From Escherichia coli (lineage in GTDB: Bacteria > Pseudomonadota > Gammaproteobacteria > Enterobacterales > Enterobacteriaceae), in NCBI RefSeq assembly GCF_044324875.1, contig NZ_CP172185.1: a stretch of DNA of 64,000 nt. The stretch is one strand, 5' to 3'. Below are positions 1,222 through 31,241 of the stretch, in pieces. The notes beneath the pieces were generated by a model. The model saw only the letters and a list, made by a program, of their open reading frames with translations. It was not told where the DNA came from and did no database searches. The translations under genes and the position numbers were made by a program. Within the stretch, counting starts at the first letter, position 1, and each line of letters opens with the position of its first letter.

Positions 1222-3612
1222 ATGGCAATTAACAATACAGGCTCGCGACGATTACTCGTCACGCTAACAGCCCTTTTTGCAGCGCTTTGCGGGCTGTATC
1301 TACTCATTGGCGGAGGCTGGCTGGTCGCGATTGGCGGCTCCTGGTACTACCCTATCGCTGGTCTTGTGATGCTCGGCGTCGCCTGGATGCTGTGGCGCAG
1401 TAAACGTGCTGCGCTTTGGCTGTACGCCGCCCTGCTGCTCGGCACCATGATTTGGGGCGTCTGGGAAGTTGGTTTCGACTTCTGGGCGCTGACTCCGCGC
1501 AGCGACATTCTGGTCTTCTTCGGCATCTGGCTGATCCTGCCGTTTGTCTGGCGTCGCCTGGTCATTCCTGCCAGCGGCGCAGTTGCCGCACTGGTGGTGG
1601 CACTGTTGATTAGCGGTGGTATCCTGACCTGGGCCGGATTTAACGATCCGCAGGAAATCAACGGCACCTTAAGCGCCGATGCCACACCTGCCGAAGCCAT
1701 CTCCCCCGTTGCCGATCAGGACTGGCCTGCCTATGGTCGCAATCAGGAAGGTCAACGCTTTTCACCTCTGAAACAAATTAACGCTGATAACGTCCACAAC
1801 CTTAAAGAAGCCTGGGTGTTCCGGACTGGCGATGTGAAGCAGCCGAACGATCCAGGTGAAATCACCAATGAAGTGACGCCAATTAAAGTGGGCGACACCC
1901 TTTACCTGTGTACCGCGCACCAGCGCCTGTTTGCGCTCGATGCCGCCAGCGGCAAAGAGAAATGGCATTACGATCCTGAGCTGAAGACCAACGAGTCTTT
2001 CCAGCACGTAACCTGTCGTGGCGTCTCTTATCATGAAGCCAAAGCAGAAACCGCTTCGCCGGAAGTGATGGCGGATTGCCCGCGTCGTATCATTCTTCCG
2101 GTCAATGATGGTCGCCTGATTGCGATTAACGCTGAAAACGGCAAGCTGTGCGAAACCTTCGCTAATAAAGGCGTGCTCAATCTGCAAAGCAATATGCCGG
2201 ACACCAAGCCGGGTCTGTATGAGCCGACTTCGCCGCCGATTATCACCGATAAAACCATCGTGATGGCCGGTTCAGTCACCGATAACTTCTCAACCCGCGA
2301 AACGTCTGGCGTGATCCGTGGTTTTGATGTCAACACCGGGGAGCTGCTGTGGGCTTTTGATCCGGGCGCGAAAGATCCGAACGCAATCCCGTCTGACGAA
2401 CACACCTTTACCTTTAACTCACCAAACTCGTGGGCACCAGCGGCCTATGACGCGAAGCTGGATCTGGTCTATCTGCCGATGGGCGTGACCACGCCGGATA
2501 TCTGGGGCGGTAACCGCACACCGGAACAGGAACGTTATGCCAGCTCGATTCTGGCGCTGAATGCCACTACCGGGAAACTGGCGTGGAGCTACCAGACCGT
2601 TCATCACGACCTGTGGGATATGGATCTTCCGGCACAGCCGACGCTGGCGGACATCACCGTTAACGGTCAAAAGGTTCCGGTCATTTATGCTCCAGCGAAA
2701 ACCGGTAACATTTTTGTGCTCGATCGTCGTAACGGCGAACTGGTGGTTCCGGCACCGGAAAAACCGGTTCCCCAAGGTGCTGCCAAAGGCGATTACGTAA
2801 CCCCAACTCAACCGTTTTCTGAACTGAGCTTCCGTCCGACGAAAGATTTGAGCGGTGCGGATATGTGGGGAGCCACCATGTTTGACCAGCTGGTGTGCCG
2901 CGTGATGTTCCACCAGATGCGCTATGAAGGCATTTTCACCCCGCCATCTGAACAGGGTACGCTGGTCTTCCCGGGCAACCTGGGGATGTTCGAATGGGGC
3001 GGGATTTCCGTTGATCCGAATCGTGAAGTGGCAATTGCCAACCCAATGGCACTGCCGTTTGTTTCGAAACTGATCCCACGCGGTCCTGGTAACCCGATGG
3101 AGCAGCCGAAAGATGCCAAAGGCACGGGTACGGAATCCGGCATTCAGCCGCAGTACGGTGTACCGTATGGCGTCACGCTCAATCCGTTCCTCTCACCGTT
3201 TGGTCTGCCATGTAAACAGCCAGCATGGGGTTATATTTCGGCGCTGGATCTGAAAACCAATGAAGTGGTGTGGAAGAAACGTATTGGTACGCCGCAGGAC
3301 AGTATGCCGTTCCCGATGCCGGTTCCGGTGCCGTTCAATATGGGGATGCCGATGCTGGGCGGGCCAATCTCCACAGCGGGTAACGTACTGTTTATCGCCG
3401 CTACGGCAGATAACTACCTGCGCGCTTACAACATGAGCAACGGTGAAAAACTGTGGCAGGGTCGTTTACCAGCGGGTGGTCAGGCTACGCCAATGACCTA
3501 TGAAGTGAATGGTAAGCAGTATGTGGTGATCTCCGCAGGCGGTCACGGTTCATTTGGTACGAAGATGGGCGACTATATTGTGGCTTATGCGCTGCCGGAT
3601 GATGTGAAGTAA
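1222..3612 (+). CDS. gcd: membrane-bound PQQ-dependent glucose dehydrogenase
   Basis: ORF 1204..3612; conserved start MAINNTGSRRLL at 1222 gives 796 aa; N-terminal TM helices then PQQ beta-propeller domain. Confidence 0.9.
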   Translation: MAINNTGSRRLLVTLTALFAALCGLYLLIGGGWLVAIGGSWYYPIAGLVMLGVAWMLWRSKRAALWLYAALLLGTMIWGVWEVGFDFWALTPRSDILVFFGIWLILPFVWRRLVIPASGAVAALVVALLISGGILTWAGFNDPQEINGTLSADATPAEAISPVADQDWPAYGRNQEGQRFSPLKQINADNVHNLKEAWVFRTGDVKQPNDPGEITNEVTPIKVGDTLYLCTAHQRLFALDAASGKEKWHYDPELKTNESFQHVTCRGVSYHEAKAETASPEVMADCPRRIILPVNDGRLIAINAENGKLCETFANKGVLNLQSNMPDTKPGLYEPTSPPIITDKTIVMAGSVTDNFSTRETSGVIRGFDVNTGELLWAFDPGAKDPNAIPSDEHTFTFNSPNSWAPAAYDAKLDLVYLPMGVTTPDIWGGNRTPEQERYASSILALNATTGKLAWSYQTVHHDLWDMDLPAQPTLADITVNGQKVPVIYAPAKTGNIFVLDRRNGELVVPAPEKPVPQGAAKGDYVTPTQPFSELSFRPTKDLSGADMWGATMFDQLVCRVMFHQMRYEGIFTPPSEQGTLVFPGNLGMFEWGGISVDPNREVAIANPMALPFVSKLIPRGPGNPMEQPKDAKGTGTESGIQPQYGVPYGVTLNPFLSPFGLPCKQPAWGYISALDLKTNEVVWKKRIGTPQDSMPFPMPVPVPFNMGMPMLGGPISTAGNVLFIAATADNYLRAYNMSNGEKLWQGRLPAGGQATPMTYEVNGKQYVVISAGGHGSFGTKMGDYIVAYALPDDVK

Positions 3613-3617
3613 CCATA

Positions 3618-3639
3618 ATGCCCGGAGAGATCCGGGCAT
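3618..3639. terminator. Hairpin (atgcccgga / tccgggcat) between convergent gcd and cueO
   Basis: 9-bp inverted repeat seen in sequence immediately after the gcd stop. Confidence 0.4.
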
Positions 3640-3658
3640 ATTTCCGAATACGGTCTTT

Positions 3659-5209
3659 TTATACCGTAAACCCTAACATCATCCCCGTATCTTCATGCTC
3701 CAGCAGATGGCAGTGCGCCATATAAGCATGTTCTTTCGGTGCATCGTGATTAAACTTCACCAGCACTTCGCTGACATTACCTTCTACCTTAACGGTATCT
3801 TTCCAGCCCGCGCGATGAGCGGCTGGCGGTTTGCCATTTTCTGACAAGATACGGAACTGCGTGCCGTGAATATGGAACGGATGCAGCATCATGTCGCCCA
3901 CGCCAGAGATAACCCAACGTTCGTACTGCCCTTTCGCCGCCGCAAACATCGGCTTATTCATATCAAACGCCTGACCGTTGATTTTATTGGCATGGTGGAA
4001 ATCGAACTTCCCGCCGTGGTTCATATGATTCATATTGCCGTGCCCCATATGGCCCATCATCTGGCTGTGATCCATCCCGGCCATCGCCTGATCGCCATAT
4101 TTCTCCATCAGCATCTGCATCCCCATCATATCGAGCATCGGGTCCATAGAGAGTTGCAGCTTACGTACCGTCAGCCCTTCCAGCGAAGGTAATGCTGGCA
4201 GGCTACTTAATGTGTCTGGCAAAGCACCAGAGGCACTAATGGCAATCGGCTGAATCCGCATTACCGGATGCGGCTTATCAAAAGGCGCAATCGCCATTCC
4301 CATCTGGCTGACCGGCAGCGTCACCAGGTCAAAGGGGTTGTTGTCGTTAACCTCCACCAGCACTTCAAAACGCTCGCCCATCAGCACGGGAAGCTCGCTC
4401 ACCTTCACCGGTTCAGGTAGCAGACCACCGTCGCTGGCAATCACATACAGCGGGCGATTGTCGCTGGTGGCGAAATTGAGCGAGCGGGCGTTACAGCCAT
4501 TGAGCAAACGCAGGCGCAGCCAACCACGCGGGGCAGCGTGTTGTGGGTAGATTGCACCGTTGGTCAGCAACGTATCGCCAAACCAGCCCACGGCGGCGGT
4601 CATCACATCCAGTTGATAATCAATCTGCCCGTCAGCGCTAAATTTCTTATCCTGAACGATCACCGGAACATCATCGATACCCCACTGTTTTGGCAACATT
4701 AATTTCAGGATCTCGTCATCTTCAATCACCACCAGACCAGCCAGCCCCATCGCCACCTGTCGCCCGGTCTTGCCATGTTGATGTGGATGGAACCAGCAGG
4801 TAGCGGCAGGTTGATCAACGTTCAACGTCACCGAGCGCTTGCCACCTGGCGGAATGATTCCCTGCGGGCCGCCGTCGACTTCACCCGGTACTTCCAGCCC
4901 GTGCCAGTGCAACGTCGTCTCTTCCGTCAGTTGGTTATAGATATCAACCGTTACCGCTTTGCCGCGCTGTAATTTCACCGCCGGCCCCAGCAGATTGCCG
5001 TTATAGCCCCAGGTAGTTGCAGTTTTCTCGCCAAAGGTGGACTGACCTGCGCCAATAGTTAACTGAATGCGATTACGGGCATCGGTCGTGAGCAAATCAG
5101 GGATCGGTAACGTTGGGCGTTCCGCCGCAAATACTGCGCGGCTCCACAGCGGTAAGGCTGAAGCCACGCCCAGCGCGACGGAATATTTTAAGAAATCACG
5201 ACGTTGCAT
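3659..5209 (-). CDS. cueO: periplasmic multicopper oxidase (cuprous oxidase)
   Basis: ORF 3659..5248; conserved start [28 protein letters not shown] (Tat signal, twin-Arg) gives 516 aa; Met/His-rich segment and [13 protein letters not shown] copper site. Confidence 0.9.
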
Positions 5210-24763: not shown

Positions 24764-24847
24764 ATGGACAAGCAACGCGGTTTTACACTTATCGAACTGA
24801 TGGTGGTCATTAACAGTAAATTACTGTACAAATACCGCATCTGTTAA
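24764..24847 (+). pseudogene. ppdD: ppdD 5' fragment: first 15 codons of the type IV prepilin (MDKQRGFTLIELMVV) fused to 12 island-derived codons, then stop
   Basis: ATG at 24764; the N-methyl-Phe prepilin leader GFTLIELM is intact up to codon 15; frame then runs into AT-rich island DNA (INSKLLYKYRIC*). Confidence 0.75.
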
Positions 24848-25181
24848 TTCATCTCTCTCCCACAATGCCACAATCCATAACATATTGATTTTAATACATA
24901 ATGATATCAAAAGGATTTGAACCATCTTAACCATCACTTCCCATTTTTAGACCCCCTTCTACTATATTTCTCGTCAGTAGAGATCTAATGGCATCTTTTC
25001 ACCTACGCACTAATAACGTATCCTTTGCTTTCGCCAAAATGGTGGTAATCATCTTTAGAACATAGTAAAAATACTGTTGATTTCTATATAGTTCTACCTC
25101 TCCTTTAGTTGTTATTAAGATGGCAGTTTCAAATCAGGAACACATAGGTATCATGTACTAACAGCTTTATAACTTAATCAG

Positions 25182-26468
25182 GTGCTAACCATGGACTCGA
25201 AATCTCTTGTTGAACTTTCCCATGATATACAATCCGGACTAGGAAACATTGACGTTCCAGATTTTGATAACATCAAAACTATCGGAATGGCATCAATACT
25301 AGCAATGCATATACGCGGATTGGGAGAAATTGATTATGAAGTTTTAAGGAAAGTCAGTGACTTCTTTTTCAACATACCTTCATATGCTTTAAAAAGCGTA
25401 TTGGAAGTACTGGCTGAGATAGAATATGTAGATTTAATAACGAAAGACAAAAAAATATTGTCAGTAATTCCAAACGTTCCTCGATTCAAAGATCTCTATC
25501 AAGGTGTTGGTGATTATTTCACATTTAGCGATCTCAACGAACATGAGCAAGGCACATTGATAATATTATCTAATCTTCAAAACAAACCCGAAAACAGAGA
25601 CAAACTAATTCATTCTACAGGCATCGACAATACTCTTTTTTCTCGTTGTTTAGAGATTGGTGAAAAAGGTAACTATTTTAGAAATTATAGAGCTAGAGGA
25701 AAAAACATCATAGCTAGCCCATTTTATTTTGCCGATAATTTAGAGTCACTTGTCGATATTTCAGCCAAAATTGGTTCGAATGATATTGATGCTGTTTTAA
25801 AAATTATAAAAGATAATCAGGGATGGCCTCTCTCACTGATCGAATCACAATTAGAAATCGGTGGAAAAAAGCTAACAAAAGTACAAAAAGAACTTTTAAT
25901 TGGTTTTTGCCAAGAGGGTGTACTCAAACCCCCTTCAATTGATTTCGGAAACCAAAAACAAGAAACATTCATATTCACACCGAGGCCCGGAAATATAAAA
26001 TTGAATGCAGCTAACAGAGAGATTTATGAACGAGCAATGGCGTTAGTTTCTTGCGTTAGGAAAGGACAATTACTGCACGACAAATATAGAATAAGGCTTC
26101 CAGTTAGGATATTGGAATCATTAAAAGAAAAAGGTTATCTTAATCAAAATTCAGAAGCTGCATCCCAGTATAGGAATCTGGTGTTTTTGAAGGTTGGAAT
26201 GCTAAAAGCTAAGGATCATAACAAGTGGGAATTTCATTTAATAAAAACAGAAGAAAACATTGAAGCATTAGATTTAGCAATAAGTCTCTTAAAAACAGGA
26301 GAACTTGCAAATTTAGAAGTTGATCAAAATGCAAAAATAGCATTAACACAAGATGAAAAATACATTCAATCGATCATTAGCTCCGCAGAACTTAGAACTA
26401 GAGAGAAGATAAAACAAAGCGAGGAAGCAAAAGAACAATTTGAACAACTGATTTTCGAAATGGAGTAA
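25182..26468 (+). CDS. uncharacterised protein, island cargo gene A (no recognisable motif)
   Basis: 428-aa ORF from GTG at 25182; more likely ATG at 25191 (MDSKSLVELSHD...) preceded by AGGTG; AT-rich codon usage; first gene of a coupled pair. Confidence 0.6.
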   Translation: MLTMDSKSLVELSHDIQSGLGNIDVPDFDNIKTIGMASILAMHIRGLGEIDYEVLRKVSDFFFNIPSYALKSVLEVLAEIEYVDLITKDKKILSVIPNVPRFKDLYQGVGDYFTFSDLNEHEQGTLIILSNLQNKPENRDKLIHSTGIDNTLFSRCLEIGEKGNYFRNYRARGKNIIASPFYFADNLESLVDISAKIGSNDIDAVLKIIKDNQGWPLSLIESQLEIGGKKLTKVQKELLIGFCQEGVLKPPSIDFGNQKQETFIFTPRPGNIKLNAANREIYERAMALVSCVRKGQLLHDKYRIRLPVRILESLKEKGYLNQNSEAASQYRNLVFLKVGMLKAKDHNKWEFHLIKTEENIEALDLAISLLKTGELANLEVDQNAKIALTQDEKYIQSIISSAELRTREKIKQSEEAKEQFEQLIFEME

Positions 26469-27571
26469 TGGTAATGGCTAACTTAGATAAAGACCTAGGT
26501 TTGAAGCAAGACGCTATAAGGTTTTGCTTGATAAATGGTTACTTGCCATTTTTAGAAGTTAACGTTGAAAACTATAGGGAACTTTCTGATACATCTACAA
26601 TTATAACAGATGTAGATGTTTTAGGGGTTGCTTTTGATATAACTGGAAAAACCAGAAAGATAATTTTCGATTGTAAAACCATTAAAAATACCAGCCCTAT
26701 TAATAGAGCGTTTTGGGCTTCCGGTGTTATGAATTTTTTAGGCTATGATGAAGCATTCATCATATTAAGAAAGAAAGCAAGTGAGGCCCATAGACTTTCC
26801 GCAAAAACAATTAATGTCCACCTTTTTGATGAAGATCAAATGAAAGGATATGCTCAATCATTTTCAATGAATTTCAATATTGATTTAAGCTACTCTACGG
26901 ACATTAATAATTGGATAAGTATACAGGAAGTATATAAAACAGATAAAACCATCCAAAAATATGGCGAATTTTTAGCAAGTTCGGTTCCTACAGAAAATGA
27001 TCCAGCGAAGAATTTGAGAAGATTTATTGCTGCTTTACAAAAAGTGAAGAATGAACTAGACCCTCAAAAAAATAAACACAGAGCAATTTACTTGCATAGT
27101 CTAATGACATTCTCATATATTATGGCATGCTTAGTGCAGCAACTAAGAGGGTTAATTGATTTTGATTATAATCAGAATGAATTCACAAGACTTCTCAAAT
27201 ATTATATCTGGGGAGGGAAGGATAGCTTTATATTAAGACATAAGATGAGAGAACTAATCTCATCTAATGACAGTTCGATTCAAAATATAGAGCCAGAGTT
27301 AAGGAATTGGGATGACTTTATTGAACTCACAAGGAGTCTACTTGACTCTCCTAATGATATAATTAAATGTTGCCATGTGTTACGTGAATTTAGTTTTTTA
27401 GAACTATCCATGCATGACATTAAAAAGGATGAGCAACTATCCACTCTAATTTCAGATAATTCAAGAATTCGTCAATTTATAATGATAATGGCTAGATACT
27501 TAACCAACTCGATGAAAATGCCAAAAGATTTCATTAACGATCTAGTATCAATATTTGATAGATTGAGATAA
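26468..27571 (+). CDS. uncharacterised protein, island cargo gene B, with N-terminal PD-(D/E)xK-like nuclease motif
   Basis: 367-aa ORF; ATG overlaps the stop of gene A (TAATG); alternative ATG at 26474 has better GGAG spacing; motif TDVDVLGV...(18 aa)...IIFDCK. Confidence 0.6.
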   Translation: MVMANLDKDLGLKQDAIRFCLINGYLPFLEVNVENYRELSDTSTIITDVDVLGVAFDITGKTRKIIFDCKTIKNTSPINRAFWASGVMNFLGYDEAFIILRKKASEAHRLSAKTINVHLFDEDQMKGYAQSFSMNFNIDLSYSTDINNWISIQEVYKTDKTIQKYGEFLASSVPTENDPAKNLRRFIAALQKVKNELDPQKNKHRAIYLHSLMTFSYIMACLVQQLRGLIDFDYNQNEFTRLLKYYIWGGKDSFILRHKMRELISSNDSSIQNIEPELRNWDDFIELTRSLLDSPNDIIKCCHVLREFSFLELSMHDIKKDEQLSTLISDNSRIRQFIMIMARYLTNSMKMPKDFINDLVSIFDRLR

Positions 27572-27577
27572 AAAGAA

Positions 27578-27609
27578 GAGCAGGCTCGAATTAAATTTCG
27601 TGCCTGCTC
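27578..27609 (+). terminator. Hairpin after cargo gene B
   Basis: gagcaggc-(16 nt)-gcctgctc inverted repeat 7 bp after the stop at 27571; no clear T-run. Confidence 0.35.
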
Positions 27610-27708
27610 ACCATATAAACAAATGATAATAACTCATTCAACTAGATTATCTTTAATTCAGAGCAGTAATGATTTTCTTAATAACAATTCCCCTTTCTGA
27701 ATCCCATC

Positions 27709-28266
27709 TCAGGAGGCATTCATTTCTTTTTTCACGCGAAACACTGTAGCCCTGCCACAATCGCACAACTTTGCAATCTCATCCGGTGTGTTCTTCCCAG
27801 CTTGAAGCATCTCAATGATTTTACTGTGTAATTCTTTGTTCTTTTGCTTTCCTTTATACTTCTTAGCCTCTTTAGCAAGGGCAATTCCTTCGTTGCGACG
27901 TGATGCGATCATTCCCCGCTCAAATTCTGCAACGGCTCCCATCATGGTTAAGATTAAACGAGATTGTGGGGAGTTATCGAAACTCATTGAGTTAGCAAGG
28001 AACTGAACAGTGATCCCGCGAGCAACGAGGCTATCAATCATTTCCAGCAAATCGCGGGTATTACGTGCAAGGCGATCAATCGAGTGAGTCATGAGCGTAT
28101 CACCTTCGCGGAGGTGTGAAAGCAGGTTCAACAATTCAGGTCTCTCGCTGGTGGACTTACCTGATTCTTTCTCGGTGACGATTTTGTCACAAACAGGTTC
28201 CAGTACTGCCAACTGACGCTCAAGATTCTGATCCTTTGTTGAGACTCTCGCGTAACCAAAAATCAT
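27709..28266 (-). CDS. small serine recombinase (resolvase/invertase family)
   Basis: ORF 27709..28296; likely start MIFGYARVSTKDQNLERQ (ATG at 28264-28266 on the minus strand, preceded by GAGGGCAGGGAA); catalytic Ser in the YARVST motif; C-terminal HTH. Confidence 0.8.
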   Translation of the reverse strand: MIFGYARVSTKDQNLERQLAVLEPVCDKIVTEKESGKSTSERPELLNLLSHLREGDTLMTHSIDRLARNTRDLLEMIDSLVARGITVQFLANSMSFDNSPQSRLILTMMGAVAEFERGMIASRRNEGIALAKEAKKYKGKQKNKELHSKIIEMLQAGKNTPDEIAKLCDCGRATVFRVKKEMNAS

Positions 28267-28285
28267 TTCCCTGCCCTCACCGCTG

Positions 28286-28356
28286 ATAAGTATCATTTAA
28301 ATTAACTGAATGATACAGTATCATTTAAATTCTTTCAATGTCTAAATGATACTAAA
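28286..28356. repeat. res-like recombination site: two adjacent palindromes built from four GTATCATT(T) half-sites
   Basis: GTATCATT(11 bp)AATGATAC at 28290-28316 and GTATCATTT(17 bp)AAATGATAC at 28318-28352, directly upstream of the resolvase start. Confidence 0.5.
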
Positions 28357-28814
28357 CGAGACAAGAAAAACGGGTATCGTTAGGGAGTACCCAAAAGAGA
28401 TTTTTGATCGTGCGTTTTTTAGTCAATGTAGGGTTAGTGAAAAGTTCAGTACCGAGATCTGAGTTCACGGCATTTTGTCGACGGGGTTGAACCTGATTAG
28501 GCGAACGAGATTTTAAATCAGGCGGAATAAAACAAGTTGTACTTTTATCTGAGTAAACGATCCCTTTAACTTTTTAGTCAGAAATCGTGATACTAGGGGT
28601 TTGGTTATTTTGTGTCCTTAAGGCCAGTACTTTTAGCGAGGACGAAAAAACGGCCTACATGAGAACGCTTACAGTAACTTAAGTATATTATCCAAAAAGT
28701 CACTTAACTTAAATCAATTTGGATGCAAAATCGCCACACTTTGCAAGTGAACACATACCGGGCAACAAGCAAATAAAAAAGGCCACTTTCGCGACCTTGT
28801 ACCAGTACAAACAC

Positions 28815-29174
28815 TCATTCAGAACGATCAAGTACCATATATGCTGGCTGACACATGCTGCCCCGCTCCTGTAGCCAGTAGTAATCAAGATCGGCAACAC
28901 GCACGTCCAATCCAGAATCTACACGGTTGATCTGTAACCGTAGCCCTACAGTATCCTTGTACGATAAACCAGATTTAACATTGTATTTGTACTTAACACC
29001 GTTTTCCTGTTCAAACTGTTTAAGGAAAGGCGTCATTTGTTTCTGAATTTCTTTCAAACAAATAACCTCATTATCAATAGCAAAGGGGGGTTCTGTTTTT
29101 CCATCAGGTACAGCAGCCTGTAAATGAAAGGAAGTACTCAACAATAACAGCATTGCAACAGAAGTCTTTTTCAT
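28815..29174 (-). CDS. small secreted or periplasmic protein of unknown function
   Basis: 119-aa ORF with signal peptide MKKTSVAMLLLLSTSFHLQA; 43 bp downstream of the membrane protein gene on the same strand. Confidence 0.5.
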   Translation of the reverse strand: MKKTSVAMLLLLSTSFHLQAAVPDGKTEPPFAIDNEVICLKEIQKQMTPFLKQFEQENGVKYKYNVKSGLSYKDTVGLRLQINRVDSGLDVRVADLDYYWLQERGSMCQPAYMVLDRSE

Positions 29175-29217
29175 TTTAATTCCTTATTAAAGAACAGTAC
29201 ATTATATTTCAATGGAC

Positions 29218-30258
29218 TTAATAACAATATTTTATATTTCCTTCGGGTTTTCTCATGCATTTAATTCCTTCAGGAATATAATCAGTTACGGGAGCAGGTC
29301 TGGCATCAGGTCTTGAAAGACGATTGGATATAGAAGACAACAGACTGAAAACACACTCATTAAATGATTTTTGATATTTATTTTTTTCATAAAAGTACTG
29401 CATGGTGATTTTATCTCTTTCGTATTGCAATTCTTTGCCAAGCTGAATCCTATCCATATCAATTCCATTTCTCATAGCATTAAATCTTTCGTTCAATAAA
29501 TTAAATTGAGATTTATTCCATTCATTTAAAGGAAATAAAGAATTGTTAAGCCTTTGCCTACAATTAGATTGCTCGATAGCTGACATGTATTCTTTCATAC
29601 TAACGCCAATATCTAAGTATGTGAGTTGTCCAGCAGTTCTATCAACTGAGTTATTAGGGTAAGATTTAATTTCAGTAAGTATTGACTCTGTTAATACTGC
29701 ATTTTCTTCTAAATCTTTGCTAATAGTTATTTGAGCTTGTTCTCTTTTATCCTTATCAAATATTGAAATGTATTTCTTTACTATATCCTGATTAGCTTTC
29801 TCGGCTGCTACTAACGCATCTTGAACCTTCTTTTCCGCCGCTTTAACTCGTTGTTCTTCTACAAATTTCGCGTAGTCATCAGTATTTGTAATGTGATTTT
29901 CACGAGCGATAGAAAACTCTTTACTATCTTTAAAACCAAGTTTTTGTGCTCTGGCTCCATCGCTTGAAGATCGGGCAGAACTTGCCACGAAAGCGAGCAC
30001 AATGATCAGTACAGGAACCGTATAATTATTAACGAGTTTATAGGGTAAGAACTTCGCTTTAAGCGTACCATAACCCAAAACAGCCCAGCCTATCGCGGCA
30101 GTACTTGCCAGTAGCTGGCACAATCCAGCGACGGAAAGCATGATTACCGACCAGAAGCCTGTACCGACTGCGAAAAGATCACCAAATTTCTCCATTGACG
30201 CAAGGAATAAAAACACTCCCCAAATGCCATAAAATCCTATTTTCAAATATTTACTCAC
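29218..30258 (-). CDS. membrane protein of unknown function (three N-terminal TM helices, coiled-coil soluble domain)
   Basis: 346-aa ORF; hydrophobic segments at about residues 7-22, 36-64 and 81-95; Lys/Glu-rich predicted coiled coil; AT-rich. Confidence 0.55.
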   Translation of the reverse strand: MSKYLKIGFYGIWGVFLFLASMEKFGDLFAVGTGFWSVIMLSVAGLCQLLASTAAIGWAVLGYGTLKAKFLPYKLVNNYTVPVLIIVLAFVASSARSSSDGARAQKLGFKDSKEFSIARENHITNTDDYAKFVEEQRVKAAEKKVQDALVAAEKANQDIVKKYISIFDKDKREQAQITISKDLEENAVLTESILTEIKSYPNNSVDRTAGQLTYLDIGVSMKEYMSAIEQSNCRQRLNNSLFPLNEWNKSQFNLLNERFNAMRNGIDMDRIQLGKELQYERDKITMQYFYEKNKYQKSFNECVFSLLSSISNRLSRPDARPAPVTDYIPEGIKCMRKPEGNIKYCY

Positions 30259-30493
30259 CGCAATTATCCTTTAATAATTTTCCAAATCGATGGTTCGTTC
30301 TATTTGTATTATCGACAATAATTCGTTTGCCTTTAGGTAGATCCCTTAAAAAGGAATCCCCCCAAAATTTATAGATTAGCAGTTGTACCACTCTCACTGT
30401 TTTGTCACTCCCATTATCTTCTCTCAGGTCAAAAGTACGGACTTAAAGCCGTCCGTGTTCAGGTGCTCAAGAGTAGCACGCATATCAATAAAT

Positions 30494-30584
30494 GATCGAT
30501 AAAAACGATCAATTAATGGATTATTGATTGCTATAATCGATCAATTACTATTAATTCAATACAAATCAATAGGTAAAATCGATC
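30494..30584. repeat. Cluster of four GATC-centred (A)TCGATCAA(T/G) motifs in an ORF-free island segment
   Basis: GATC at 30494, 30507, 30539 and 30581 within 90 bp of AT-rich DNA, each in a similar CGATCAA context. Confidence 0.4.
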
Positions 30585-31241
30585 AAGAGGATTCGTCATC
30601 CATGAAAGGGGTTATGTATCTGATTTCAATACAGGGAGTATTAGCGATACCATCACGCAAACGCTCTTAAAGCGTAGCTACGGCGTTTTGTAGGGTTTTG
30701 GTCATTCATGTGTGTCAGTAATGAACATCGCATTCAGGGGCTTCCTGTGCGTTTTGTCCGAAACACCATCATGAAGGGGGACAGATCGGATCGGGGTCGC
30801 TTCGCTCTGGTCAGTACTGGATAGTTCTTTTCCAGTAACTGAAACCGCAGATCCCCCACTAAGTACACAAAGGAATCAGTAGTATAATAAGTAATTAAAT
30901 AGCAATCAGTTATGTACTGAATGACAGAACAGAAAAACGCGATTGGTTCGCTCTGCCAGTGACTGAAAGGAACGAAGCAGTAGAACCTAATCCAGCGAAC
31001 AGTACACGCAAAGCGGGTACTGTTTAATTGTTTTATCTATGTAAACAATGGGATAGCTATCAAGTACTCACTGCGTGAGCACTCTCACTAACTACCCGAA
31101 ACAGTTCGCTTGCTTCGCCGCTCCTACTTTCAGGTAGTTAATTCGCTTTCGCTCGTTGTGATGTCCGAAATTTATTACCTATAGTATTATAAGGTATTAT
31201 TTTCCGGACATTTATGTATTTTTATGATGGTGTTCTGGACA

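What the first reader, a model, noticed from the sequence alone, without database searches (positions are those of the whole stretch)
28815..30258. Membrane protein plus small secreted protein pair of unknown function
A 346-aa protein with three N-terminal TM helices and a long Lys/Glu-rich coiled-coil soluble domain ending in a Cys-containing tail is followed 43 bp downstream by a 119-aa protein with a clear signal peptide. Both are AT-rich with no family I can name. Envelope-located two-gene modules on mobile islands are often superinfection-exclusion, abortive-infection effector or toxin/immunity pairs.
Basis: inference. Interest (0 to 1): 0.55.

Follow-up and report, generated by a model that had tools for sequence, protein, structure and literature searches.

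The report
Tethered periplasmic protein plus secreted partner
Two real but uncharacterised envelope genes, one encoding an inner-membrane protein with a swappable periplasmic head and one a small secreted protein, recur on a family of small mobile islands that carry anti-phage systems; they most likely protect the cell envelope rather than form a toxin/antidote pair.

Summary
On the minus strand, 29218-30258 encodes a 346-aa protein and 28815-29174 a 119-aa protein. Both have ribosome-binding sites, a terminator-like hairpin follows the second, and both are under purifying selection (dN/dS 0.1-0.28). They lie in a 9.6-kb AT-rich island bounded by a large serine recombinase and inserted in E. 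coli ppdD.

The 346-aa protein has three membrane helices, a conserved juxtamembrane motif, a Lys/Glu helical stalk and an all-helical head with four invariant cysteines. The head is predicted to be periplasmic. The 119-aa protein has a cleavable signal peptide and two invariant cysteines.

Neither protein matches Pfam, NCBIfam, PHROGs, PADLOC, PDB or any known fold.

In sister islands across Enterobacterales the head is exchanged as a precise cassette; I saw five or more unrelated head types. The downstream secreted gene also varies: SEC119, SEC107, or LprI/DUF1311. Head and partner combine many-to-many, and SEC119 also occurs with no membrane gene. This argues against a toxin/immunity pair, a spanin or a holin/antiholin complex.

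Sister islands carry CBASS, DRT2 and defence-candidate systems in the adjacent slot.

My best reading (about 0.35) is independent periplasm-facing exclusion or inhibitor proteins. The function is untested.

The parts
29218..30258 (-). Gene for the 346-aa inner-membrane protein (WP_000049760.1): three-TM anchor, stalk and periplasmic head
   Evidence: ORF with RBS. RefSeq CDS. 106 homologue clusters. dN/dS 0.1-0.28. AlphaFold model with mean pLDDT 75.
29971..30258 (-). Residues 1-96: three-TM anchor, predicted N-in and C-out. Conserved G32, W58 and the NNYTVP motif before TM3
   Evidence: Hydropathy and loop charges. Alignments A1, A4 and A5. Distant homologues add a TM0 followed by KKRK, which fits the same topology.
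29764..29970 (-). Residues 97-165: juxtamembrane motif LGF.D..EF..A..NNI.N..DY.KF and a Lys/Glu/Ala helical stalk. The recurrent recombination breakpoint lies at about 29796-29816 (codons about 148-154)
   Evidence: The motif is the best-conserved stretch across 17-30% identical homologues. DNA homology to B- and C-type loci stops at 29796-29816.
29221..29763 (-). Residues 166-346: type-A head, an all-helical domain with invariant C233/C302 and a C-terminal C334/C345 hairpin. It is exchanged as a cassette
   Evidence: pLDDT 85-95. Cys invariance. Head dS is about three times anchor dS. Homology to B-type loci resumes 7 nt after the stop codon. The head also occurs on other anchors or behind a signal peptide.
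28815..29174 (-). Gene for the 119-aa secreted protein 'SEC119' (WP_001578623.1). Signal peptide is residues 1-20 (29115-29174); the mature alpha/beta domain has invariant C39/C108
   Evidence: ORF and RBS. 204 homologues at 70-99% identity with variable signal peptides. Model core pLDDT about 78. dN/dS 0.09-0.20.
28779..28798 (-). Terminator-like hairpin plus T-run closing the two-gene unit
   Evidence: sequence.
30259..31241 (-). Conserved roughly 1-kb non-coding region upstream of the membrane-protein gene. It has hairpins with GAGCGAAGCGA-type loops, a 21-nt inverted repeat (30755-30775 / 31221-31241) and a GATC-rich block at about 30490-30600. It probably holds an origin and/or the regulatory region of the unit
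   Evidence: 82-91% identical across genera. Hairpins with a few compensatory changes. The TM-proximal half is replaced by a repressor/Ner switch in L022.
30251..30397 (-). Out-of-frame remnant of the alternative N-terminus (MRVVQLLIYKFWG...) of the membrane-protein family
   Evidence: ORF. Matches the start of P0081-type proteins. Aligned.
31242..32717 (-). Backbone gene: a 477-491-aa P-loop (ResIII/DEAD-like) protein that always precedes the non-coding region
   Evidence: Pfam ResIII 1.4e-4. phrog_2467 6e-38. 82-92% identical in sister islands and 32% in L009.
32793..34355 (-). Large serine recombinase at the island end
27709..28266 (-). Small serine recombinase (resolvase/invertase type) downstream of the unit
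   Evidence: phrog_125 7e-59. RefSeq CDS. 94-96% identical in Klebsiella and Pectobacterium islands.
24812..34396 (.). The 9.6-kb AT-rich island inserted in codon about 12-16 of ppdD. A 12-bp repeat ATGGTGGTYATT lies at 24800-24811 and 34397-34408

Best explanation
The two genes encode two independent envelope proteins, not an obligate complex.

The 346-aa protein sits in the inner membrane through three helices. A helical stalk of roughly 60-100 angstroms holds a disulfide-bonded 'head' domain in the periplasm. The 119-aa protein is exported by Sec, cleaved, and is a soluble disulfide-bonded periplasmic protein.

Both genes belong to the standing equipment of a family of small integrative islands. 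The islands have a large serine or tyrosine recombinase, a P-loop protein, a conserved roughly 1-kb non-coding region and a small serine recombinase, and their variable slot carries anti-phage systems.

I infer that the head and the secreted protein are binding or inhibitor modules. They would intercept something that must cross the periplasm, most likely the DNA-delivery apparatus or tail-associated cell-wall hydrolase of an infecting phage. That would be superinfection exclusion at the envelope. Exchange of the head cassette would change what is recognised.

Shown here: gene reality, purifying selection, the modular mosaic, many-to-many pairing, the island context and the absence of any known family. 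Predicted from sequence and consistent across independent lines, but not shown experimentally: periplasmic location. Inferred only: that they bind an incoming agent and block phage entry.
For: Periplasmic location is supported by four lines.
- Positive-inside charge distribution.
- The extra TM0+KKRK variants.
- Invariant cysteine pairs.
- Head A occurs behind a signal peptide fused to an LprI-like domain (P0250), and head B occurs on a Zn-ribbon+1TM anchor in a Pseudomonas P2-like phage fragment next to tail genes gpD/gpU.

The modules are independent.
- Head A is found with SEC119, SEC107(+SEC131) or LprI.
- Head B is found with SEC119 or SEC107, and head C with LprI.
- A further head on a 2-TM anchor is found with SEC119.
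- SEC119 occurs alone after the non-coding region in Morganella.

The head is a precise cassette. DNA homology breaks at codon about 150 and resumes 7 nt after the stop codon. Head dS is about three times anchor dS with dN/dS about 0.16-0.19.

One of the interchangeable partners belongs to LprI/DUF1311. The literature implicates this family in lysozyme inhibition and in immunity to periplasm-acting T6SS effectors (PMC12135965, PMC12981562).

The island family carries defence cargo beside the unit: CBASS cyclase plus 2TM effector and PDC-M45 (L002), DRT2 at E 1.5e-201 (L008), and PDC-S51 (L021). In a minimal Klebsiella island the unit is the only payload. Small serine recombinases are reported markers of defence loci (PMC12632615).

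There is precedent for inner-membrane proteins blocking phage DNA entry: P22 SieA (PMC10461980) and membrane-bound SNIPE (PMC13190303).

Against: In two island lineages (L022, L026/27) the membrane-protein gene lies directly downstream of a Mu Ner-like gene, opposite an S24 LexA/CI-type repressor. This suggests expression on induction rather than in the resident state, which is atypical for exclusion genes.

Neither protein is found in 50,697 phage records or in IMG/VR, whereas classical exclusion genes are prophage morons.

The LprI lead fits immunity to bacterial toxins or lysozymes equally well.
Confidence: 0.35

Rival explanations
1. Life-cycle function of the island. The proteins would be made when the island is induced together with a helper prophage. 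They would act on the envelope to control lysis, for example by inhibiting the helper's endolysin, spanin or holin from the periplasmic side to delay or time lysis, or otherwise prepare the cell for transfer.
For: In Pectobacterium (L022) and in a common Yersinia island (L026/27) the membrane-protein gene starts 5-16 nt after a Mu Ner-like gene, divergent from an S24 repressor. That is the position of an early or induced operon.

The unit always follows the P-loop protein and a hairpin- and GATC-rich non-coding region that resembles an origin.

A distant version sits in an element with HNH, TerS, TerL, a head-tail joining protein and a portal (L009).

LprI-type partners are lysozyme inhibitors by family annotation (PMC12981562).
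Against: Most islands, including the window's, have no repressor/Ner switch, no packaging genes and no lysis genes. A strict life-cycle function would not be expected to tolerate five or more unrelated heads, three or more unrelated partners, and loss of the membrane gene (L028). There is no similarity to holins, antiholins or spanins in PHROGs.
Confidence: 0.2
2. Orphan immunity or inhibitor proteins against periplasm-acting antibacterial agents that are not phages. Candidates are T6SS cell-wall or membrane effectors, colicin M or pesticin-type bacteriocins, or host lysozymes. On this reading they are carried as an acquired interbacterial-defence payload.
For: All modules are small, secreted or membrane-tethered, disulfide-bonded periplasmic domains that are shuffled, fused and arrayed. 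Examples are the LprI+head A fusion P0250, the tandem SEC107+SEC131, and possibly an LprI-like+SEC107 fusion in L008 (LprI part weak, E 0.08). LprI/DUF1311 proteins are documented T6SS immunity proteins and lysozyme inhibitors (PMC12135965, PMC12981562).
Confidence: 0.2
3. Toxin/immunity, addiction or abortive-infection pair. The membrane protein would be the toxic effector, either through its head or through pore formation by its anchor, and the secreted protein its antidote.
For: The layout looks like a polymorphic toxin module: a conserved N-terminus, a swapped C-terminus and a small downstream gene. The anchor has conserved glycines and polar residues.
Against: The partner does not co-vary with the head: 77-85% identical SEC119 follows unrelated heads, and head A has three different partners. 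SEC119 exists without any membrane gene. No toxin, delivery or pre-toxin domain is detected. The anchor is interchangeable, occurring as 3-TM, 4-TM, 2-TM or signal-peptide versions.
Confidence: 0.07

Closest known systems
Superinfection-exclusion proteins of temperate and lytic phages (P22 SieA; T4 Imm and Sp; P1 Sim; HK97 gp15)
   Same: Both are small proteins without enzymatic domains, encoded by mobile elements and located in the inner membrane or periplasm. [quoted passage not shown] T4 Sp is a membrane-anchored periplasmic inhibitor of a phage tail lysozyme (my own knowledge).
   Different: There is no sequence relationship: 0 PHROG families for the membrane protein, and only a signal-peptide-level hit at E 0.029 for the partner. 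Here there is a three-TM anchor plus stalk plus cassette-exchangeable head and a separate secreted protein. The carrier is a small recombinase island rather than a prophage, and the proteins are absent from phage records. Function is untested.
LprI/DUF1311 (PF07007) lysozyme inhibitors and T6SS immunity proteins
   Same: These are secreted, cysteine-containing small periplasmic proteins. LprI-family genes occupy exactly the position of the 119-aa gene in sister islands (L006/7, L019/20), and an LprI-like domain is fused to head A in P0250.
   Different: The window's 119-aa protein has no PF07007 match even at E<=10 and a different predicted fold, one helix on a four-stranded sheet.
Polymorphic toxin/immunity modules (CdiA-CT/CdiI, Rhs-CT/RhsI and the like)
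   Same: A conserved N-terminal part, a sharply bounded exchangeable C-terminal domain and a small gene immediately downstream.
   Different: The downstream gene does not co-vary with the C-terminal domain. There is no delivery domain and no toxin domain, and the protein is anchored in the producer's own inner membrane.
Two-component spanins (lambda Rz/Rz1) and T4 holin T / antiholin RI
   Same: An inner-membrane protein with a helical, cysteine-containing periplasmic domain, followed by a small exported protein.
   Different: The partner has no lipobox cysteine and has a cleavable AXA-type signal peptide. The membrane protein has three TM helices rather than one. The island has no holin or endolysin. 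There are no PHROG hits, and the partner can occur alone.
TolA/TonB-type periplasm-spanning tethers
   Same: The architecture only: a membrane anchor, a charged Ala/Lys/Glu helical stalk and a small disulfide-bonded C-terminal globular domain (my own knowledge of TolA).
   Different: No sequence or fold similarity was detected. The anchor has three TM helices and the stalk is much shorter.

Membership tests
Polymorphic toxin/immunity module | The downstream immunity gene co-varies one-to-one with the variable C-terminal domain | tested here: not met
   Head A occurs with SEC119, SEC107 or LprI; head B with SEC119 or SEC107; head C with LprI. SEC119 is 77-85% identical behind unrelated heads.
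Polymorphic toxin/immunity module | A recognisable toxin domain and an N-terminal secretion or delivery domain | tested here: not met
   No Pfam, NCBIfam or PADLOC family for heads A, B or C, or for the anchor.
Polymorphic toxin/immunity module | The effector is toxic and the partner neutralises it | not testable with these tools
   Needs expression experiments.
Two-component spanin (Rz/Rz1) | The o-spanin is an outer-membrane lipoprotein with a lipobox cysteine | tested here: not met
   No conserved Cys in the signal-peptide region across 28 homologues. The cleavage motif is HLQA|A or IAA|VP.
Two-component spanin (Rz/Rz1) | The i-spanin has a single N-terminal TM, and the genes are linked to holin and endolysin genes | tested here: not met
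   Three hydrophobic segments. The island has no lysis genes.
Known superinfection-exclusion families (SieA, Imm, Sp, Sim, gp15, Cor/Llp) | Sequence membership in the phage protein family | tested here: not met
   PHROGs returns 0 families for the 346-aa protein. For the 119-aa protein it returns only phrog_8609 (unknown function) at E 0.029, over the signal peptide region.
Known superinfection-exclusion families (SieA, Imm, Sp, Sim, gp15, Cor/Llp) | Located in the inner membrane or periplasm and encoded on a mobile element | tested here: met
   Location is by prediction only: TM segments, signal peptide, Cys pairs and signal-peptide-fused head variants. The island is bounded by a large serine recombinase inside ppdD.
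Known superinfection-exclusion families (SieA, Imm, Sp, Sim, gp15, Cor/Llp) | Blocks DNA entry of superinfecting phage while adsorption is normal | not testable with these tools
   Needs plating, adsorption and injection assays.
LprI/DUF1311 (PF07007) | Match to the PF07007 profile | tested here: not met
   The window's 119-aa protein has no Pfam match even at E<=10. The feature is met only by the proteins that replace it in L006/7 and L019/20.
Ivy / MliC / PliC lysozyme inhibitors | Characteristic fold | tested here: not met
PADLOC-listed anti-phage systems (v2.0.0) | Match to any defence-protein model | tested here: not met
   0 families for both proteins at E<=0.1.

The most novel reading that the evidence does not exclude
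The unit is the signature payload of an undescribed family of small, probably replicative, integrative islands of Enterobacterales. It would constitute a new kind of envelope immunity. An inner-membrane 'sentinel' holds an exchangeable recognition head at the level of the cell wall, and a variable set of secreted proteins accompanies it. Together they would neutralise phage entry machinery, or other periplasm-crossing weapons, with specificity reprogrammed by cassette exchange at a fixed junction in the stalk.
Probability: 0.2. Interest if true: 0.75.

Novelty: new variant of a known kind. Interest (0 to 1): 0.55.

Why it matters
Defence at the envelope, before phage DNA reaches the cytoplasm, is much less explored than cytoplasmic immunity. 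The few known exclusion proteins were found one at a time.

This unit is present in about 1.5% of complete E. coli genomes and across Klebsiella, Enterobacter, Citrobacter, Yersinia, Serratia, Pectobacterium, Pantoea and Morganella. It always sits beside the defence-cargo slot of one island family. It also has a clear modular logic: a fixed anchor and stalk, a swappable head, and swappable secreted companions.

If it excludes phages or neutralises periplasmic weapons, three things follow. It would give a tractable system for studying how recognition specificity at the envelope is diversified. It would supply a set of new periplasmic binding folds. And it would provide a marker for finding further defence islands.

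If it instead serves the island's own life cycle, it would be a first handle on how these small islands move.

Tried and rejected
Family and fold searches that found nothing.
- Pfam, NCBIfam, PHROGs and PADLOC on both proteins, on the anchor alignment and on heads B and C gave no family.
- PDB sequence searches with profiles of both proteins, head B and an LprI partner gave nothing.

Searches in sequence collections.
- A profile search with the head-A alignment recovered only nine proteins of the same family.
- tblastn against phages and plasmids found neither window protein in phages and one megaplasmid hit for the anchor.
- IMG/VR gave none.
- The GTDB species-representative scan gave only seven loci.

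Ideas tested and dropped.
- An invertible segment served by the neighbouring invertase-type recombinase, either a Mu G-segment-like switch of the C-terminus or a promoter flip between the 21-nt inverted repeats. No suitable inverted repeats flank the head and partner. The non-coding region has the same orientation in all 54 E. coli genomes that carry it. Differences from strain C325 are a substitution patch, not an inversion.
- The Ivy-like 'CKPHDC' loop idea for head B (CFDDAHC). Neither Pfam nor PDB supports it.
- Rfam on the island gave no family.
- Literature searches by RefSeq accession and by ppdD island terms found no paper.
Full report
WHAT IS THERE. The window is E. coli chromosome. 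The stretch 28700-30400 is 100% identical to nine complete genomes and is found in 80 of 5,426 genomes, always on the chromosome. Between nadC and the body of ppdD lies a 9.6-kb island with GC 0.36 against 0.53 in the flanks. It splits ppdD after about codon 15, and a 12-bp repeat ATGGTGGTYATT lies at both junctions (24800-24811 and 34397-34408).

Read on the minus strand, the island contains the following:
- a large serine recombinase (32793-34355);
- a P-loop ResIII/DEAD-like protein (31242-32717; phrog_2467);
- 983 bp of non-coding DNA (30259-31241);
- the 346-aa gene (29218-30258);
- the 119-aa gene (28815-29174);
- a terminator-like hairpin (28798-28779);
- a small resolvase/invertase-type serine recombinase (27709-28266);
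- on the other strand, two unknown genes (25182-27571).

Both ORFs have AAGGA ribosome-binding sites and are annotated CDSs. Stop-free runs in shuffled island sequence never exceed 179 codons. Against orthologues in Klebsiella, Pectobacterium and other genera, dN/dS is 0.11-0.28 for the anchor, 0.12-0.28 for the stalk, 0.16-0.19 for the head and 0.09-0.20 for the secreted protein. Both therefore encode proteins under purifying selection.

ANATOMY OF THE 346-AA PROTEIN. Hydropathy and the AlphaFold model give three membrane helices at about residues 6-22, 28-66 and 79-95. Several lines argue for N-in, C-out.
- The N-terminus (MSKYLK) and the loop before TM3 (LKAKFLPYK) are basic, while the TM1-TM2 loop (EKFGD) is acidic.
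- Distant homologues carry an extra N-terminal helix followed by KKRK, which preserves this topology.
- The soluble part has four cysteines invariant among type-A homologues (C233, C302, C334, C345). C233 and C302 remain invariant at 20-35% identity.
- Head A also occurs behind a cleavable signal peptide, fused to an LprI-like domain (P0250).
- Head B occurs on a Zn-ribbon+single-TM anchor.

After TM3 comes the best-conserved motif of the whole family, LGF.D..EF..A..NNI.N..DY.KF. Next is a Lys/Glu/Ala-rich helix at about residues 126-164. Last is a compact all-helical domain at residues 170-310 with pLDDT 85-95, followed by a short disulfide hairpin tail.

ANATOMY OF THE 119-AA PROTEIN. It has a standard Sec signal peptide, and across 204 homologues the signal region is the only variable part. 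The mature part is 70-99% identical and has two invariant cysteines. The model shows one helix packed on a four-stranded sheet, with core pLDDT about 78.

COMPARATIVE GENOMICS IS INFORMATIVE. Homologues of the 346-aa protein fall into classes that share the first 150 or so residues at 70-89% identity but have unrelated C-termini:
- type A, like the window;
- type B, about 257 aa, with the motif CFDDAHCY...WTDG...AQNGFGA;
- type C, about 300 aa;
- at least two further types.

Head A is also found on a 2-TM anchor, on a 4-TM anchor and behind a signal peptide.

At the DNA level, homology between the window and B- or C-type loci stops at 29796-29816 (codons about 148-154, in the stalk). For B-type loci it resumes 7 nt after the stop codon and runs through the partner gene. 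Even among type-A genes the head has about three times the synonymous divergence of the anchor. The head is therefore exchanged as a precise cassette.

The downstream gene varies as well. It can be SEC119 (the window's family), SEC107, SEC107 plus SEC131, or an LprI/DUF1311 protein; all have signal peptides and paired cysteines. Pairing is many-to-many:

| Head | Partners seen |
|---|---|
| A | SEC119, SEC107, LprI |
| B | SEC119, SEC107 |
| C | LprI |
| A further head on a 2-TM anchor (Yersinia) | SEC119 |

In Morganella, SEC119 follows the non-coding region with no membrane-protein gene at all.

WHAT THIS EXCLUDES. A cognate toxin/immunity pair requires the antidote to track the toxin domain. 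A 77-85% identical SEC119 behind unrelated heads, three different partners for head A, and a stand-alone SEC119 all contradict that. The same facts, plus the missing lipobox, the three TM helices and the absence of lysis genes, argue against a spanin or a holin/antiholin complex. The two genes are better described as two independent periplasm-facing modules that travel together.

THE CARRIER. The order P-loop protein, conserved non-coding region, membrane protein, secreted protein(s), [cargo], small serine recombinase recurs in E. coli, Klebsiella, Raoultella, Enterobacter, Pectobacterium, Pantoea and others. It sits behind either a large serine or a tyrosine recombinase, at several chromosomal sites.

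The cargo slot holds bona fide or candidate anti-phage systems:
- CBASS cyclase plus 2TM effector, and PDC-M45, in L002;
- DRT2 at E 1.5e-201 in L008;
- PDC-S51 in L021.

A Klebsiella island contains nothing but the recombinases, a 184-aa protein, the membrane protein and an LprI protein. A 32%-identical version of the P-loop protein, followed by a gap, a 2-TM/head-A protein and SEC107, lies in an element with HNH, TerS, TerL, a head-tail joining protein and a portal. That points to a phage- or satellite-like ancestry.

In Pectobacterium and Yersinia islands, an S24 repressor and a divergent Mu Ner-like gene lie immediately upstream of the membrane-protein gene. In Pectobacterium they replace the TM-proximal half of the non-coding region.

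MOST LIKELY FUNCTION. Periplasmic location, autonomy of the modules and rapid cassette turnover of the head are all consistent with proteins that bind something foreign in the periplasm. So are the LprI family among the interchangeable partners (implicated in lysozyme inhibition and T6SS immunity: PMC12135965, PMC12981562), the defence-cargo carrier, and a head-B homologue in the accessory region of a Pseudomonas P2-like phage.

I favour envelope-level exclusion of phages at about 0.35. On this reading, the stalk-borne head and the soluble protein interfere with the DNA-delivery conduit or the tail lysin. This would work like P22 SieA (PMC10461980) or T4 Sp, without being a member of either family.

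Three rivals remain:
- The repressor/Ner arrangement supports a role in the island's induced life cycle, such as lysis timing or endolysin inhibition (about 0.2).
- The LprI lead fits orphan immunity to interbacterial periplasmic toxins or lysozymes equally well (about 0.2).
- Toxin/immunity or abortive infection is unlikely (about 0.07).

None of these is tested; the decisive experiments are listed separately.

NOVELTY. Both protein families, the junction-defined head cassette and the island backbone appear undescribed. Searches by accession and by locus terms found no paper. By kind, this is a new variant of the accessory envelope proteins encoded by mobile elements.

Noticed in passing
window 30259-31241: The 983-bp non-coding region between the P-loop gene and the membrane-protein gene is as conserved as the flanking genes, 82-91% across genera. 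It has four copies of a TGTCCGRAA...ACC motif: a 21-nt inverted repeat at 30755-30775 / 31221-31241 and a long hairpin near 31150-31210. It also has hairpins with GAGCGAAGCGA-type loops showing a few compensatory changes, a nearly invariant block around 30740-30790, and four GATC sites in about 110 bp near 30490-30600. It may be an origin, an oriT or a structured RNA. There is no Rfam family.
   Followed up: partly
window 30251-30397 (-): A small out-of-frame ORF beginning MRVVQLLIYKFWG is a fossil of the alternative N-terminus of the membrane-protein family. It still has its own RBS and lies just upstream of the real GTG start, which indicates a past 5'-end replacement.
   Followed up: partly
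window 25182-26468 and 26468-27571 (+): Two overlapping unknown genes (428 and 367 aa) are the island's remaining cargo. They have no significant PADLOC, PHROG or NCBIfam match; the only hit is PD-T4-9_C at E 0.009. Sister islands carry CBASS, DRT2, PDC-M45 or PDC-S51 as cargo, so this pair is a candidate new defence system.
   Followed up: partly
window 24764-24847 and 34397-34801: The island interrupts the type IV pilin gene ppdD. The leader plus the first residues remain as an 84-bp annotated CDS on the left, and the rest starts at 34397. The 12-bp repeat ATGGTGGTYATT lies at both junctions, so ppdD is probably inactivated in carriers. A 29%-identical version of the unit lies next to nadC in another species (L008).
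   Followed up: partly
window 28289-28340 and 28382-28648: Two 24-nt direct repeats (AGTATCATTTAAATT...) overlap a promoter-like site just upstream of the small serine recombinase. The 250-350 bp further upstream is conserved in islands with other partner types. It even recurs inside the cargo region of L002 (11952-12198) and in L006, so it may be a recombination or cargo-boundary site.
   Followed up: partly
window 31242-32717 (-): A backbone P-loop protein with only a weak ResIII/DEAD match at its N-terminus and phrog_2467 (unknown function). RefSeq labels it variously 'type III restriction endonuclease subunit R', 'DEAD/DEAH box helicase' or hypothetical. It is possibly the island's replication protein.
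   Followed up: partly
L022 8021-8995; L026 5419-6402; L028 11800-12760: An S24 (LexA/CI-type) repressor and a divergent Mu Ner-like HTH_35 gene occur in several island lineages. In two of them the Ner-like gene reads straight into the membrane-protein gene.
   Followed up: partly
L023 (KM389404.1) 1231-1746: A fragment of a Pseudomonas P2-like (Citexvirus) phage encodes a 171-aa protein made of a Zn-ribbon, one TM and a type-B head (41% identical). It lies between a Dam-type methyltransferase and the tail genes gpD/gpU.
   Followed up: partly
L009/L010 2523-16744: An element next to msyB carries a large serine recombinase, HNH, a 475-aa P-loop protein, a 930-bp gap with similar GAGCGGAGCGA hairpins, a 2-TM/head-A protein, SEC107, several unknown genes, and then TerS, TerL (GpA), a head-tail joining protein and a portal. 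It could be a capsid-forming satellite or a small prophage.
   Followed up: partly
L024 (NZ_CM129890.1) 2682-3910: In E. coli strain MB06101 an IS2 sits inside the conserved non-coding region. The unit there is followed by a hypothetical gene plus an AAA-ATPase gene instead of the resolvase.
   Followed up: no
window 30259-31241 versus L025: Strains whose membrane and secreted genes are 100% identical to the window still differ by about 3% in the upstream non-coding region. The differences cluster at gap positions 223-389 and at GATC sites (697-745), suggesting a gene-conversion patch and variation in Dam sites.
   Followed up: partly
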